Shown here one piece after another: positions 22,753-63,233 of a stretch of DNA of 64,000 nucleotides; positions within the stretch are counted from its first letter, which is position 1, and each line of letters starts with the position of its first letter. Under the pieces are notes generated by a model. It was not told the origin of the DNA and searched no databases. It saw only the letters and a list, made by a program, of their open reading frames with translations. The translations under genes were made by a program, and so were the position numbers. The stretch is from a virus: IMG/VR virus record IMGVR_UViG_3300024262_000020, positions 1-64,000 of that record. One strand, 5' to 3'.

Positions 22753-23166
22753 TTATATGTTATATTTTTTTCCTGTTTTTCTAACTTGGTTATTATATTT
22801 AGATTCTTCTGATGGTTCATAAGAAAATTCCCAATCTTCACCTTCTTCATCATTACCTTTTATTTTTACTGAAACTTCTTCATCAATAATGTCATTCTCT
22901 AATAAAAATTCAAATATTTTTTGTAAAGAACTTTCAAAATCATCTATTATTATATCACATAAATCATCTTGAGTCATATATTCATCATCAAAACAACTTT
23001 GACCAATTTCTTCTATTATATCATCATTAATATCAAATCGTTCATCTAATAATCCATCCTTAATCGCATCTTGAATATAGAACCAAGTTGTTGGTGAATT
23101 TTCTCCATAATATAGAAGTATTGTTCCTTCTTCATCAGTATAACCTTCAAAAGTTTTAAATCTCAT
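22753..23166 (-). CDS. Acidic hypothetical protein with KTFE N-tag and KYNI C-tag
   Basis: ORF track; tags shared with other ORFs. Confidence 0.6.
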   Translation of the reverse strand: MRFKTFEGYTDEEGTILLYYGENSPTTWFYIQDAIKDGLLDERFDINDDIIEEIGQSCFDDEYMTQDDLCDIIIDDFESSLQKIFEFLLENDIIDEEVSVKIKGNDEEGEDWEFSYEPSEESKYNNQVRKTGKKYNI

Positions 23167-23172
23167 TTTTCT

Positions 23173-23544
23173 TTATTTATTTTTCATTACTTGTTTTAAC
23201 TTATTAAGTCCATAGAAATAATCTATAATTCTACATTTTAATACTCCCATTGTTGTTTGATTAAAAGGTGTTGTTTGATGTGATCTTTTTAACATTGCAG
23301 TTAAATAAATGATTTGTCCTCTTTTAACTTCACCAACAGATATAGCGGTATCAACCGTTATATTTTCTTCAATTTTATTTATAACACTCTCATCTTTAAT
23401 TATATCTATAATAGCTTCAATTTCAACAGGACCTTTAATAGGAATAAATTCTCCATCTTCTGTTTCTTCTAATGCTAAAATACCATCAGCAAGAGGTTTC
23501 AATTCGTCTTTTTTCTCAAAAGTATTAAATTTTTGTATTTTCAT
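23173..23544 (-). CDS. Hypothetical protein (KFNTFE N-tag)
   Basis: ORF track, tightly packed operon. Confidence 0.55.
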   Translation of the reverse strand: MKIQKFNTFEKKDELKPLADGILALEETEDGEFIPIKGPVEIEAIIDIIKDESVINKIEENITVDTAISVGEVKRGQIIYLTAMLKRSHQTTPFNQTTMGVLKCRIIDYFYGLNKLKQVMKNK

Positions 23545-23967
23545 TTATATGTTATATTTTCTTAATTCTTTATTTATTGGTTTGTATTCGTCAATAATTA
23601 CTTCTATTACTTCATCTTCATAGCCTTTAAATCCAGGATTTTCATTCGGACTCATATTATCTATTGGGAAATTTTCAATCCATAATCCACCCTCACCAGA
23701 AAACCAAACAGTATATCTATCCGAATTATCAATTAATATTGATGCATAAGGACCTTGATACATATCAAACCCTTTAATATCGATAATCTCAAATGGTATT
23801 TCTTCATCTTTAAGTGAATTTTGAATAAGTGTTAATCTTTTTTCCATATCTTTTATCCAATTTGATTCTTCACTATCATCATCAGGATTATCTTTAACAT
23901 ATTCCCAATCTACATCTCTTGACCATTCGCCAGTTTCAAATAATTTATATGTTTTTAAAAATTTCAA
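23545..23967 (-). CDS. Acidic hypothetical protein with KLFE N-tag and KYNI C-tag
   Basis: ORF track; shared tags. Confidence 0.6.
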   Translation of the reverse strand: MKFLKTYKLFETGEWSRDVDWEYVKDNPDDDSEESNWIKDMEKRLTLIQNSLKDEEIPFEIIDIKGFDMYQGPYASILIDNSDRYTVWFSGEGGLWIENFPIDNMSPNENPGFKGYEDEVIEVIIDEYKPINKELRKYNI

Positions 23968-24446
23968 TTTATTTTATAACTTTTTTCAATATAATTTTGA
24001 TATTTCATTTTCATTTTATCTATCAATTTATCATCAGTAAAATTAGGATTATCGAGATTATATACTATGTCATCATTTATTTTTATTCTAATATTATTTT
24101 CATTTTTATTATCATGAACAGATAATTTGCCTTCAATAATATCAAAATTAGATAACTCAATTGTTATCTTAGTCTTATATATTAAATTATAATTTTTAAA
24201 ATCTCTTTTATTATAGTAACCTTCAAGTTTTTTGACCCTTAAATTCTTTGGTCTGTTGCGTTGTTTGTATATTATGAATGAGAATTCGTTAATTATTTTA
24301 TTTGTGAACTCTTGAACATCATTTTCAATATTATTTTCAATTTCTAACTTCATATTTTCATTTAAGTTTTTATGTATATTTCTATTTTTACTCAGTTTCT
24401 CGTTATCAATATCTTCATTTACAAATAAATTAAATTTTATCAACAT
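23964..24446 (-). CDS. Hypothetical protein (FNLFVNE N-tag)
   Basis: ORF track. Confidence 0.55.
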   Translation of the reverse strand: MLIKFNLFVNEDIDNEKLSKNRNIHKNLNENMKLEIENNIENDVQEFTNKIINEFSFIIYKQRNRPKNLRVKKLEGYYNKRDFKNYNLIYKTKITIELSNFDIIEGKLSVHDNKNENNIRIKINDDIVYNLDNPNFTDDKLIDKMKMKYQNYIEKSYKIN

Positions 24447-60901: not shown

Positions 60902-61662
60902 TGAAGAAATTATTTGAATTTAGAGTATTTGATATAATGAAGGATGATGAAAATCGTGAATTCCTTAATAAAGTTAAAGATGAAAATCCTGAACTTTATG
61001 ATAGGTTTATGTCTTTAGTTGGTAATAAAGGATTAGAAATTGCTAAACAGAAATATTTACAATATGACCCCGAATGGATAAAAGAACAAAAGAGAAAGAA
61101 AACAAAAGAAGAAAAACAAAGAGAAAAAGAAGAATCAAAAGATAGATTTAGACAAAGATTTTTAGATAAGTATCGTGAAGCGGTGACCAATATTAATATA
61201 CATTTGGCTAGGACTCCATTAAGAGATGTAATTTATATTATAAGAGAGGAAAAAAATTTAAAAAGATGGAAAAAACAATATAAAACATTATTCAAAGATG
61301 TTGATAGTTCTCTACATGATATGGAAAATGAACCTATTGATTCTGTTAAAATAATACCACCATATTATAGATATCGTTCTGAATTTGGTGATGAACATAT
61401 AGAAATTAAACAATATGTAAATTTAGATGAAAATAAGAAAAAAATCAAAGATGTAAAATTTACTATTATATTTCATTTTGAACCAGAAGGGTTTGATGAA
61501 TTTGAAGCGGATAGAGATATTAAAATAGGTCAGTTAACAACATATATCAGGTTAAATTTAAATGAATTAAAGGAACTCTTAGAAAAATTTAAATATTATA
61601 TGAGTGATGAGTATAGAAAAAATTGGGAGATAGAACAAGAAACAGAAAAATATAATTTATAA
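60901..61662 (+). CDS. Hypothetical protein, KLFE N-tag and KYNL C-tag
   Basis: ORF track. Confidence 0.6.
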   Translation: MKKLFEFRVFDIMKDDENREFLNKVKDENPELYDRFMSLVGNKGLEIAKQKYLQYDPEWIKEQKRKKTKEEKQREKEESKDRFRQRFLDKYREAVTNINIHLARTPLRDVIYIIREEKNLKRWKKQYKTLFKDVDSSLHDMENEPIDSVKIIPPYYRYRSEFGDEHIEIKQYVNLDENKKKIKDVKFTIIFHFEPEGFDEFEADRDIKIGQLTTYIRLNLNELKELLEKFKYYMSDEYRKNWEIEQETEKYNL

Positions 61663-62574
61663 ATGGAATCGATTGTACAATTATTAATATCAATGATAGT
61701 AGCATATGAAGAATATGGTGATGCTATTGGATATACAAAAGAGGAATTAGATAATTTTATTCAACAATATGAATTGGTTAAATTGAATTGGAACGAATTA
61801 GGTGCATTAGTATTGTATCATTATAAGTATATTACGAAAGAACAATTTGCTAAAGTCATGGAATTAGAAGTTGATGAAGATGGTGAATTTTGGATGGAGT
61901 TTAATGATTTTGAAGATGCATTACCAAGTGATTTTGATTTTGAAGCAAAAGTTTTAAATGGTGATATGTGGGAAGATTGGCAACGTTCAGATTATTATGA
62001 TTATGATTTTAGTTTTAATGATTTTTCAGAGGAAACATTAAAATCTGTGATAGAATATTGTGACAAAAATGATTGTTCAATAGATGTTGATGATGAAGAT
62101 ATTTTTCTTACAAAAGATAATTTGAGAATAGAAAATGGTAATATTTATTTTGGTGATGAAGATTTAGATGAGCATATGAAAGATGGTGGTATGGAAGATT
62201 TAAAATTACAAATACAATTTGGTATATCTGATGCACATGATAATGCAGAATCTGATGCTGTATATAATGCGGTTAATAAAAATTTTAAAGAGGGTATTGG
62301 TTCTTATAAGTGGGTATCTACAAAAAAGGGAGAAAAAAATGTTGAAATGTTATGGGTTAAAGTTGAGGTAGATTTAGATGATGTTATAGAAAAATTAAAA
62401 GATGATTATACTTATAGAGATGAAACTGATTATTCATCTGGCTCTTATGGTAATATGTATTATGTTTTAAGGGAATTTGATTTTATAAATATGAAAAAAC
62501 CAAATTTTGATTATTTATATTCTTCACCAACAACAAAAGATACTGATGAGTGTGTTAGAAACCGATTATATTAA
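61663..62574 (+). CDS. Highly acidic hypothetical protein
   Basis: ORF track. Confidence 0.55.
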   Translation: MESIVQLLISMIVAYEEYGDAIGYTKEELDNFIQQYELVKLNWNELGALVLYHYKYITKEQFAKVMELEVDEDGEFWMEFNDFEDALPSDFDFEAKVLNGDMWEDWQRSDYYDYDFSFNDFSEETLKSVIEYCDKNDCSIDVDDEDIFLTKDNLRIENGNIYFGDEDLDEHMKDGGMEDLKLQIQFGISDAHDNAESDAVYNAVNKNFKEGIGSYKWVSTKKGEKNVEMLWVKVEVDLDDVIEKLKDDYTYRDETDYSSGSYGNMYYVLREFDFINMKKPNFDYLYSSPTTKDTDECVRNRLY

Positions 62575-62591
62575 AAAATTAATAAAGCATT

Positions 62592-63233
62592 ATGGTAATA
62601 ACAAAATATAAATTATTTGAACAAAAATTAGAAACAACTGAGGAATTATCAAAATTGTTAGATATGGCAATTGCAACTGATGATTTGGAACTCGTTAAAT
62701 TTTTTGTAAGTAAAGGCGCAAGATCAACTGATGACACATTAGAAAATGCATCTTATGATGAAGATATTTTCAAATATCTATTAGACAATAATTATAAACT
62801 TAAACTAAGTGTAAGTAGATTGAATGATACTGGTGTACAAAAGACTTTGATAGATTATAATAAATATAACTACATATTGGAGAATCTTGGATATTTTAAT
62901 AAGCAATTAAAGAGTGATAAAAAATATAAAGAATCTGTTGATAATTTCTTTAAAAATCCTGGTAAATCTAAGGAAAGTCTTTTATTCTACCAACATGCAT
63001 TTGAATGGGCAAAAGATGATAAAGAGTTGTTTTTATATTTTTTAGAAGAAGGTGGTGATTATAAAAGTCTTAAACGTGAAATTTTGAAAGAACCAGAAGC
63101 ACAAAAAGCCTTGATAGATTTTGGTAAGGATTTATTTGTTAAAGATGTAGGATTTAGTCCAGAGTTGAGAGATGATCCTAAATATAAAAAGTGGCTTGAA
63201 ATGGGTGAAGAATTTGATAAATATAATATGTAA
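62592..63233 (+). CDS. Ankyrin-like repeat protein, KLFE N-tag and KYNM C-tag
   Basis: LDMAIATDDLELVKFFVSKGA; internal duplication (QKTLIDY/QKALIDF). Confidence 0.55.
   Translation: MVITKYKLFEQKLETTEELSKLLDMAIATDDLELVKFFVSKGARSTDDTLENASYDEDIFKYLLDNNYKLKLSVSRLNDTGVQKTLIDYNKYNYILENLGYFNKQLKSDKKYKESVDNFFKNPGKSKESLLFYQHAFEWAKDDKELFLYFLEEGGDYKSLKREILKEPEAQKALIDFGKDLFVKDVGFSPELRDDPKYKKWLEMGEEFDKYNM

What the first reader, a model, noticed from the sequence alone, without database searches (positions are those of the whole stretch)
22753..63233. Shared C-terminal KYN[LIM]-stop tag on ten otherwise unrelated proteins
Seen: ORFs at 22753, 23545, 54038, 54913, 56006, 59268, 59685, 60350, 60901 and 62592 all end in KYN[L/I/M]-COOH. 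The codons vary synonymously (AAA/AAG, TAT/TAC, AAT/AAC, TTA/CTT), which points to selection on the peptide, not on a DNA site. Nine of the ten also carry the N-terminal tag described below. Inference: a C-terminal recognition signal (packaging or ejection order, docking on a phage scaffold or on the MoxR/vWA machine, or a degron) that defines a cargo class.
Basis: partly seen in the sequence, partly recalled or inferred. Interest (0 to 1): 0.72.

Follow-up and report, generated by a model that had tools for sequence, protein, structure and literature searches.

The report
Two-ended peptide label, megaphage late proteins
About one in ten proteins of this fragment of an uncultivated giant bacterial virus, otherwise unrelated to each other, end in the same four residues (Lys-Tyr-Asn-Leu/Ile/Met) and mostly start with the same eight; they appear to be made together with the virus-particle genes, so this is probably an undescribed address label, perhaps for loading cargo into the virus head.

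Summary
Ten ORFs in the window, plus two further along the same 87.6-kb contig, end in KYN[L/I/M]-stop. Chance predicts 0.01 such ORFs (P about 3e-33).

The signal is on the peptide, not the DNA:
- all variation in the K-Y-N codons is synonymous, and codon usage in the tag matches the genome;
- 24 tagged genes have no co-directional downstream gene;
- orthologues down to 35% identity keep the last four residues (70% pairwise identity) while the 16 residues before them drift (19%).

KYNL is the invariant end of an appended 15-20-residue C-terminal helix. It is paired with a flexible N-terminal MK[Y/H][L/I]KxFE peptide that resembles the T4 capsid-targeting sequence.

The label sits on ankyrin, SH3/Tudor-like, DMP19-like and many orphan proteins, all soluble and acidic. 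It covers 10-28% of ORFs in five related fragments of AT-rich phages. CheckV completeness puts their full size near 700 kb. Mahaphages and a complete AT-rich 440-kb phage lack it.

New here: tagged genes lie in units headed by the promoter-like motif TAATATATA. That motif also heads portal, protease, capsid, sheath and fibre genes, but not replication genes.

Best reading: a label on late proteins, probably head or ejection cargo. This scan noted the same label before on other DNA, and I found no publication describing it.

The parts
22753..23166 (-). Tagged ORF, 137 aa: MRFKTFEGY...GKKYNI-stop
   Evidence: no Pfam or PHROG match above threshold
23545..23967 (-). Tagged ORF, 140 aa: (L)KFLKTYKLFETGEWS...LRKYNI-stop, with the N-tag offset
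   Evidence: a protein with a similar N-terminus, MKHIKSYKIYETGEWS...KKFNI, is in G004
23173..23544 (-). ORF with the N-tag only (MKIQKFNTFEKK), in the same unit as two tagged genes
23964..24446 (-). First gene of the minus-strand unit (MLIKFNLFVNED, second N-tag dialect). AATATATA lies 19 nt upstream, at 24466-24473.
54038..54916 (+). Tagged ORF, 292 aa: DMP19-like helical domain with an inserted DnaJ-type zinc finger. N-tag MKIIREFKDF; appended C-helix YPEEWEKFKIRRSANKYNL.
54013..54020 (+). Late-type promoter-like motif (TTTTAATATATA), 17 nt upstream of 54038
54913..55281 (+). Tagged ORF, 122 aa: MKYLKLFED...ETEKYNL-stop
56006..56248 (-). Tagged ORF, 80 aa, C-tag only, ending convergently with no downstream gene; AATATATA lies 70 nt upstream
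56348..57772 (+). MoxR-type AAA+ ATPase with the N-tag (MKKLQKFEDF), a roughly 100-aa N-terminal extension and late-type motifs upstream
57787..59202 (+). Its N-terminus MLIKFKRYQQ resembles the second N-tag dialect.
59255..59262 (+). Late-type promoter-like motif, directly after a hairpin plus T-run, 5 nt before 59268
59268..59681 (+). Tagged ORF, 137 aa: MKTLKTFESY...VDKYNL-stop
59685..60350 (+). Tagged ORF, 221 aa: MKTLKTFEGY...AGKYNL-stop
60350..60901 (+). Tagged ORF, 183 aa: MKHLKLFEEH...GEKYNL-stop. Orthologues at 57-85% identity keep the (K/D)YNL end while the preceding stretch varies in length and sequence.
60901..61662 (+). Tagged ORF, 253 aa: MKKLFEF...ETEKYNL-stop, with a shortened N-tag
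62592..63233 (+). Tagged ORF, 213 aa: MVITKYKLFEQK...FDKYNM-stop, at a convergent end

Best explanation
K-Y-N-[L/I/M]-COOH is the invariant end of a portable C-terminal module. The module is a 15-20-residue amphipathic helix appended to the folded domain, with the last two residues free.

Together with a flexible N-terminal peptide, M-K-[Y/H/T]-[L/I]-K-x-F-E, it forms a two-ended peptide label. The label is bolted onto a large, fast-diversifying class of small, soluble, acidic proteins: ankyrin, SH3/Tudor-like and DMP19-like domains, and many orphans. These occur in a clade of AT-rich megaphages estimated at about 700 kb, of which this contig is roughly a 12% fragment.

Shown:
- selection acts on the peptide;
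- the label was added to pre-existing domains;
- both ends are predicted to be solvent-exposed and not packed against each other.

Inferred: the genes belong to the late temporal class, because they share the promoter-like motif that heads the virion structural genes.

Most likely mechanism (inferred): one common partner, present late in infection, reads the label and brings these proteins to the assembling particle. They would then be loaded into the prohead and delivered with the DNA, as an enlarged analogue of the T4 internal proteins. Those proteins are likewise hypervariable and share only a capsid-targeting sequence. The reading partner has not been identified.
For: Enrichment is specific to the C-terminus: 12 observed against 0.01 expected.

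Peptide-level selection:
- Variation in the K-Y-N codons is at wobble positions only, and the codon mix equals genome usage.
- 52 of 188 tagged genes have no coupled downstream gene, 24 of them at convergent ends, and 443 coupled junctions have no tag.
- In the DMP19-like family, the 22 closest homologues of 67 end in K[YF][NGS][LI]-like tails. Pairwise identity is 0.70 for the last four residues against 0.19 for the preceding sixteen.
- A second family behaves the same way.

Bolt-on origin:
- Most untagged homologues end at query residues 270-277, before the final helix.
- Ankyrin repeats (13 of 150), LRR, zinc finger and SH3/Tudor-like domains all carry the label.
- With tags stripped, 58 of 63 clusters are singletons.

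Exposure in AlphaFold2 models:
- 291-aa model (pLDDT 90): residues 1-13 and 15-18 are below 50, helix 274-287 is followed by KYNL in coil.
- 104-aa model (pLDDT 86): residues 1-10 average 51 and are coil, helix 90-102 ends at K-Y.

Late class:
- AATATATA is concentrated 5-35 nt upstream of start codons: 18 of 40 hits against 2.2% expected, P = 1e-19.
- It heads portal, maturation protease, major head protein, tail sheath, baseplate hub and fibre genes, and the unit that includes the terminase gene.
- It does not head RNR, DnaB, UvsX or DNA methyltransferase genes.
- 140 of 180 tagged genes lie in motif-headed units against 318 of 881 others (OR 6.2). At unit level the counts are 51 of 65 against 147 of 336, P = 3e-7.

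T4 resemblance: ipII and ipIII begin MKTYQEFIAE and ipI begins MKTFKEFTS in the T4 record, against MKTLKTFE here and MKTYQQFNE in G004. T-even internal proteins are described as diverse defence proteins sharing only the CTS (PMC3012670).

Feasibility: the giant phage SPN3US carries more than 40 MDa of ejection proteins in a head built of about 50 proteins (abstract of PMC7411985).
Against: There is no direct evidence that any tagged protein is in a virion. Late timing is inferred from a shared motif, not from RNA; no RNA run holds this DNA.

No T4-type [L/I]-x-E cleavage site is enriched next to either tag (9% or less at any position). So the N-tag fails one defining feature of the T4 CTS.

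T4 internal proteins have no C-terminal tag and, from established knowledge, are basic. The tagged proteins here are acidic (D+E 17.9% against 13.4%).

Labelling about 17% of ORFs in the 330-kb fragment would extrapolate to roughly 200 species per genome. That is far more than any known packaged set.

A MoxR ATPase and its partner also carry N-tags, which fits a cytoplasmic late machine as well as it fits cargo.

The AlphaFold2 output gives no coordinates, so the absence of N-C contact rests on low pLDDT alone.
Confidence: 0.45

Rival explanations
1. The label is read late in infection by a cytoplasmic machine rather than by the capsid. One candidate is the neighbouring N-tagged MoxR AAA+ ATPase and its partner, acting as a remodeller or adaptor. 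Another is a factor that gathers the proteins at an assembly site or compartment. In this reading the proteins act inside the producing cell and are not packaged.
For: The late-type, N-tagged MoxR pair sits inside or next to tagged arrays in both contigs that hold it, G000 and G003 (48% and 54% identity). A second, untagged pair in G001 lacks the late motif. Late timing fits this reading as well as it fits packaging.
Against: The link is adjacency only, in genomes where 10-28% of ORFs are tagged. The pair was not found in the 330-kb and 154-kb tag-bearing fragments, which is uninformative because they are partial. No binding evidence could be obtained.
Confidence: 0.22
2. The termini control protein stability. 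The aromatic-x-aliphatic-COOH end would be a degron, or a shield against one, seen by a host C-terminal-recognising protease or adaptor (ClpXP or Lon adaptors, Prc/Tsp-type PDZ proteases). This would time the lifetime of a whole protein class.
For: [Y/F]-N-[L/I]-COOH has the aromatic-x-hydrophobic-COOH form bound by PDZ domains (established knowledge). The last two residues are free in both models.
Against: No PDZ or S41 peptidase is encoded in about 860 kb of tag-bearing fragments. Tail-specific PDZ proteases are periplasmic, while none of 186 tagged proteins has a TM-like hydrophobic segment. A degron does not explain the paired N-terminal tag or its resemblance to the T4 CTS.
Confidence: 0.12
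3. Nothing reads the label. The conserved ends are a shared gene frame inherited through cassette duplication or recombination in tandem arrays. They are kept because the N-terminal peptide and the C-terminal helix cap stabilise small domains or aid expression.
For: Tagged genes form tight tandem arrays with overlapping stop and start codons: 134 of 188 are coupled, and 88 of these are followed by an N-tagged gene. The junction is therefore a repeated stretch of about 40 nt that could mediate shuffling. The C-helix is confidently packed on the domain.
Against: Unrelated folds carry identical ends. Strict conservation is confined to four terminal residues, two of them not in the helix, while the helix itself drifts. 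Synonymous variation argues against maintenance by DNA identity. The N-tag is predicted to be disordered, so it is not a fold element.
Confidence: 0.1
4. The motif is a DNA or RNA element overlapping the stop codon, such as a TATAAT-like promoter or an A/U-rich re-initiation site for the next gene, and the peptide is incidental.
For: AAATATAATTTATAATG contains TATAAT. All tag codons are A/U-rich. 71% of tagged genes are tightly coupled to the next gene.
Against: Variation is confined to synonymous or conservative changes. Leu is encoded as TTA, TTG, CTA or CTT, and the Y/F swap changes the second codon base. The 15-nt pattern never occurs away from ORF ends. 24 tagged genes end convergently. 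443 coupled junctions lack the motif. Orthologues keep the peptide across deep divergence.
Confidence: 0.03

Closest known systems
Capsid-targeting sequence (CTS) of phage T4 internal proteins IPI, IPII, IPIII and Alt
   Same: A short N-terminal peptide, M-K-T-(aromatic/aliphatic)-(K/Q)-x-F, is shared by otherwise unrelated, fast-evolving small proteins of a phage with T4-type terminase, portal and maturation protease. The genes share the promoter-like motif of the head genes. T-even internal proteins are described as diverse anti-defence proteins sharing only the CTS (PMC3012670).
   Different: T4 has about four such proteins; here 10-28% of ORFs carry the label. T4 internal proteins have no C-terminal tag. 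No [L/I]-x-E processing site follows the N-tag here. The cargo here is acidic rather than basic. Packaging is unproven.
Encapsulin cargo-loading peptides (C-terminal targeting peptides)
   Same: A short C-terminal peptide on unrelated cargo proteins that docks on the inside of an HK97-fold shell (established knowledge). A major head protein is encoded in a tag-bearing relative whose gene order resembles this contig's.
   Different: Encapsulin peptides are disordered, sit behind flexible linkers and are Gly/Ser/Leu-rich. Here the tag ends a well-packed helix. The sequence is K-[Y/F]-N-[L/I], and it is paired with an N-terminal tag.
Ejection (E) proteins and inner-body proteins of giant phages (SPN3US, phiKZ group)
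   Same: Many different proteins are packaged with the genome of a very large phage. SPN3US has more than 40 MDa of them in a head of about 50 proteins (abstract of PMC7411985).
   Different: Those proteins are recognised through propeptides cut by the prohead protease. I know of no common two-ended tetrapeptide or octapeptide label described for them.
C-terminal aromatic-x-hydrophobic-COOH ligands of PDZ domains and C-terminal degrons (ssrA-type)
   Same: A free C-terminal tripeptide with an aromatic residue at -3 and an aliphatic residue at -1.
   Different: No PDZ or S41 reader is encoded in the fragments. The tagged proteins show no TM-like hydrophobic segment. The paired N-terminal tag is unexplained.

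Membership tests
T4-type CTS-bearing internal proteins | Shared N-terminal M-K-T-Y/F-Q/K-E-F peptide on otherwise unrelated proteins | tested here: met
   T4 ipII and ipIII begin MKTYQEFIAE and ipI begins MKTFKEFTS. The window has MKTLKTFE, MKYLKLFE and MKHLKLFE, and G004 has MKTYQQFNE. This is a resemblance of 5-7 positions, not demonstrated homology.
T4-type CTS-bearing internal proteins | CTS removed by the gp21-type prohead protease at an [L/I]-x-E site shortly after the tag | tested here: not met
   [LI].E frequency is 7% or less at any of the first 40 positions of 186 tagged proteins, close to untagged background. A relative does encode a maturation protease fused to a scaffold with about 12 YSEY[IL]AENLD repeats.
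T4-type CTS-bearing internal proteins | Synthesised with the head genes (late) | tested here: inconclusive
   The shared promoter-like motif AATATATA heads structural genes and 78% of tagged units. There is no expression data.
T4-type CTS-bearing internal proteins | Physically present inside the mature head and ejected with the DNA | not testable with these tools
   The phage is uncultivated and no proteomic data could be searched.
Encapsulin-type C-terminal cargo-loading peptide | Disordered C-terminal peptide behind a flexible linker | tested here: not met
   The C-terminal module is a confident helix (residues 274-287 and 90-102). Only the last 2-4 residues are free.
Encapsulin-type C-terminal cargo-loading peptide | Same C-terminal peptide on unrelated cargo of one HK97-fold shell | tested here: inconclusive
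   Unrelated proteins share the peptide. Binding to the shell was not tested.
PDZ-ligand or tail-specific-protease degron | A PDZ or S41 reader available to the tagged proteins | tested here: not met
   PF13180 and PF03572 are absent from G000, G001, G003, G004, G005 and G007, while the controls ring. Host readers were not examined.
DNA-level element (promoter or re-initiation site) overlapping the stop codon | Conserved irrespective of reading frame and of the encoded residues | tested here: not met
   The motif occurs only in frame at ORF ends, with synonymous or conservative variation, and is kept at convergent ends.

The most novel reading that the evidence does not exclude
A clade of roughly 700-kb megaphages uses a two-ended peptide address to load on the order of 200 different small binder proteins per genome into the capsid as a pre-made, injected arsenal. 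The address is a T4-CTS-like N-terminus plus a new C-terminal helix ending in K-[Y/F]-N-[L/I]-COOH. The cargo includes ankyrin, SH3/Tudor-like and DNA-mimic-like proteins. The C-terminal tetrapeptide would be a previously unknown capsid- or scaffold-docking signal. A second, mutually exclusive tag (R-K-x-K-L-x-x-L) would mark the non-late class.
Probability: 0.35. Interest if true: 0.85.

Novelty: new variant of a known kind. Interest (0 to 1): 0.7.

Why it matters
If the label is a loading signal, it would be the largest known set of virion-delivered proteins. It would also be a simple sequence rule for listing the injected effectors of uncultivated giant phages straight from metagenomes.

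It would extend the T4 internal-protein principle (hypervariable anti-defence cargo sharing only a short address) to a two-ended address and to hundreds of cargo species. Short portable tags of this kind could be reused to load foreign proteins into phage capsids.

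Tried and rejected
- **Close relatives.** No close relatives of two window proteins were found in IMG/VR. No match to GenBank phage records for three tagged proteins.
- **Family annotation.** The ten window proteins are almost empty in Pfam and PHROGs. Of 150 tagged proteins, only ankyrin and a few odd domains match Pfam, and PHROGs gives no structural category.
- **Fold searches.** Both models give only weak matches: DnaJ zinc finger and DMP19 for one, PWWP/Tudor/KOW-like barrels for the other.
- **Candidate readers.** PDZ and S41 were not found. 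A T4-type protease family gave one weak hit in G005, which PHROGs confirmed as a maturation protease.
- **MoxR pair.** Not found in G004 or G005, which are partial. Mahaphages hold only distant MoxR homologues.
- **Processing sites.** No [L/I]-x-E enrichment next to the tags.
- **N-C clasp or Lys-Asn isopeptide idea.** Considered and set aside, because the N-tag has pLDDT of about 41-51 in both models. Contacts could not be measured, as coordinates are not returned.
- **RNA evidence.** No RNA holder is listed for this DNA. The only strong holder is a subsurface metagenome that is probably the source sample.
- **Literature.** Searches for the tag strings and for CTS-like labels in megaphages found nothing relevant.
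- The search of protein representatives, one homologous-protein search and read laying were not used.

Full report
**What the window is**

The window is the first 64 kb of an 87,615-bp IMG/VR virus record with 27% GC. CheckV rates the record 12% complete, which implies a genome of about 700 kb.

It encodes:
- a T4-type large terminase, 52% identical to that of the 735-kb 'uncultured phage' LR756501;
- a baseplate wedge protein;
- a collagen-like tail fibre;
- a tRNA array that includes a CUA-anticodon tRNA.

A public run from a subsurface metagenome holds 99% of the sampled words of the stretch searched (54000-63300) and is probably the source sample.

**The observation**

Two more lie at 77031-77360 and 77360-77857 on the same contig.

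- From amino-acid frequencies, 0.010 such ends are expected among 127 ORFs, against 12 observed (P = 3e-33).
- Inside proteins KYN[LIM] is not enriched (4 against 2.2 expected), so this is a property of the C-terminus.
- Every genomic match to AARTAYAAYNTNTRA is one of these ORF ends, and the reversed control gives none.
- AT-richness does not produce the pattern. A complete 440-kb phage (its 20-kb locus is 25% GC) shows 17 matches against 19 controls. Two Mahaphages show 3 and 7 against 9 and 8.

**Peptide or DNA?**

Five lines of evidence point to the peptide.

1. In the 12 copies, every difference within the K-Y-N codons is at a wobble position and is synonymous.
2. Over 47 tagged genes from four contigs, the codon mix is AAA:AAG 45:2, TAT:TAC 39:8 and AAT:AAC 38:9, with Leu as TTA, TTG, CTA or CTT. 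This mirrors genome-wide usage, so there is no added DNA constraint.
3. In a sister group the tyrosine is replaced by phenylalanine (TAT to TTT), a second-position change that is conservative only at the protein level.
4. 134 of 188 tagged genes are tightly coupled to the next gene. But 24 end convergently and 28 more have a gap, and they keep the tag. In addition, 443 coupled junctions have no tag.
5. Orthologues keep the tag.
   - The 292-aa protein at 54038 has 67 database homologues. The 22 closest, down to about 35% identity, all end in K[YF][NGS][LI]-like tails. Mean pairwise identity is 0.70 for the last four residues and 0.19 for the sixteen before them.
   - The protein at 60350 behaves the same way. 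Five of its seven homologues end in (K/D)YNL behind a stretch that varies in both sequence and length.

**Anatomy of the label**

The C-terminal conservation extends beyond four residues. It includes hydrophobic positions at -12 and -10, a small residue at -6 and acidic positions at -14, -11 and -7.

| AlphaFold2 model | Mean pLDDT | N-terminus | C-terminus |
|---|---|---|---|
| 291 aa, 55-sequence alignment | 90 | residues 1-13 and 15-18 below pLDDT 50 | helix 274-287, then KYNL as coil |
| 104 aa, 39-sequence alignment of a 40-member small-protein family | 86 | residues 1-10 coil, mean pLDDT 51 | helix 90-102 ending at K-Y; N-L free |

The label is therefore a flexible N-terminal peptide plus an appended helix whose invariant tip is exposed.

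The module is an addition to pre-existing domains. Most untagged homologues of the 54038 family end at query residues 270-277, before the last helix, and their N-termini do not resemble the N-tag.

**Who carries it**

A DNA-pattern scan and a family scan of IMG/VR found the label only in AT-rich contigs (21-26% GC). CheckV rates those examined as 1-46% fragments, implying genomes of about 700 kb.

| Contig | Size | Tagged ORFs / all ORFs | Dialect |
|---|---|---|---|
| G000 (this contig) | 87.6 kb | 12 / 127 | KYN |
| G001 | 98.8 kb | 14 / 143 | KYN |
| G002 | 7.5 kb | 7 / 15 | KYN |
| G003 | 45 kb | 32 / 114 | KYN |
| G005 | 154 kb | 21 / 218 | KYN |
| G004 | 330 kb | 102 / 602 | mostly KFN |

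- With the tags stripped, 58 of 63 BLAST clusters among tagged proteins of four contigs are singletons.
- Of 150 tagged proteins, 13 are ankyrin-repeat proteins. One each carries LRR or zinc-finger/DMP19-like domains, and the rest have no Pfam family.
- The 40-member small family folds as an SH3/Tudor-like barrel, on weak Foldseek matches.
- Tagged proteins are acidic (D+E 17.9% against 13.4%). None of 186 has a TM-like segment, against 58 of 870 others.

**Timing**

The octamer AATATATA, usually within TTTTAATATATA, is concentrated 5-35 nt upstream of start codons. In this contig 18 of 40 hits fall there against 2.2% expected (P = 1e-19), and the result is similar in four relatives.

It precedes:
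- in G005, the portal, maturation protease, major head protein and fibre genes;
- in G001, the tail sheath, baseplate hub/lysozyme, Ig-like structural protein and fibre genes;
- here, the fibre gene and the unit that includes the terminase gene.

It is absent upstream of the units holding ribonucleotide reductase, DnaB helicase, UvsX recombinase and a DNA methyltransferase. I therefore read it as the late, structural-class promoter. This is inference, since no RNA data exist.

| Gene class | In motif-headed units | Comparison |
|---|---|---|
| C-tagged genes | 140 of 180 | others 318 of 881; OR 6.2 |
| Units with a tagged gene | 51 of 65 | units without 147 of 336; P = 3e-7 |
| Genes with the second tag (R-K-x-K-L-x-x-L) | 11 of 57 | depleted |

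In the window, four of the five tagged units are motif-headed. The fifth has the motif 70 nt upstream.

**Comparison with T4**

Read from the T4 record, ipII and ipIII begin MKTYQEFIAE and ipI begins MKTFKEFTS. None has a KYNL-like end. The N-tag here (MKTLKTFE, MKYLKLFE; MKTYQQFNE in G004) matches at M1, K2, a hydrophobic residue at 4, K/Q at 5 and F at 7.

A review describes the T-even internal proteins as diverse anti-defence proteins sharing only the CTS that brings them into the scaffolding core (PMC3012670).

A tag-bearing relative, G005, carries a glycosyltransferase cluster like the one at the left end of the window, directly after its head genes. It encodes a maturation protease fused to a scaffold-like region with about twelve YSEY[I/L]AENLD repeats. 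Each repeat contains a T4-type [I/L]-A-E site and resembles the T4 CTS core YQEFIAE.

However, no [L/I]-x-E site is enriched after the N-tag or before the C-tag. So the label is not a demonstrated member of the T4 CTS family, even if it may work in a similar way.

**Readers**

No PDZ domain or S41 peptidase is encoded in about 860 kb of tag-bearing fragments.

A late-type MoxR ATPase and its partner, both with N-tag-like starts, lie within or beside tagged arrays in the two contigs that hold them. That is position only.

**Verdict**

It is the C-terminal half of a two-ended portable label on a large class of small late proteins.

Loading into the head as ejection cargo is the best-supported mechanism but is unproven (about 0.45). 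The rivals are a late cytoplasmic reader (0.22), stability control (0.12), an unread structural frame (0.10) and a DNA element (0.03).

This scan has noted the same label on several other megaphage fragments. My literature searches found no description of it.

Noticed in passing
window 40813-46671 (minus strand) and 53029-53529: A second C-terminal tag, R-K-x-K-[L/I]-x-x-[L/I], marks a separate set of small proteins (for example 41864, 43057, 43290, 43607, 53029). These are depleted in units headed by the late-type motif: 11 of 57 across five contigs.
   Followed up: partly
window 24466, 24494, 28528, 37357, 54013, 56308-56326, 59255 and others: The promoter-like motif (T)TTAATATATA lies 4-8 or 17-24 nt upstream of start codons. 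It heads structural genes and tagged arrays but not replication genes, so it is a likely late promoter of this clade.
   Followed up: yes
G005 20639-23011 (L086:639-3011): A 790-aa head maturation protease is fused to a scaffold-like region with about 12 tandem YSEY[I/L]AENLD repeats. Each repeat carries a T4-type [I/L]-A-E site and resembles the T4 CTS core YQEFIAE.
   Followed up: partly
window 40728-40800: A tRNA with anticodon CUA (an amber suppressor, called 'Pyl' by ARAGORN) sits in a genome where TAG is a rare stop codon (2 of 127 ORFs).
   Followed up: no
window 46993-51491: The tRNA array holds nine tRNAs, including four tRNA-Lys and two tRNA-Phe. It is interspersed with three homing or HNH endonuclease genes (46993-48024, 48961-49725, 50841-51491).
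   Followed up: no
window 295-21040: A long co-directional cluster of about 25 glycosyltransferase- or sugar-modification-like genes. A similar cluster directly follows the head genes in G005.
   Followed up: no
window 23964, 57787; G004 18593, 18955, 247500 and others: A second N-tag dialect, M-I-[I/T]-x-F-K-[I/L]-[F/Y]-E, occurs alongside MK[Y/H][L/I]KxFE. Larger proteins tend to carry an N-tag without the C-tag: the MoxR ATPase and its partner here, and a 180-aa protein in G003 that looks like a methyltransferase by eye (not searched).
   Followed up: partly
G001 42429-46692 versus window 56348-59202: There are two versions of the phrog_1297 ATPase and phrog_1314 partner pair. One has N-tags and the late-type motif (G000, G003). 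The other has neither (G001).
   Followed up: partly
window 59215-59245: A hairpin followed by a T-run (AAAACCTCATCAAAAATTGATGAGGTTTTTT) lies between the MoxR-partner gene and the next tagged array. It looks like a terminator immediately followed by the late-type motif.
   Followed up: no
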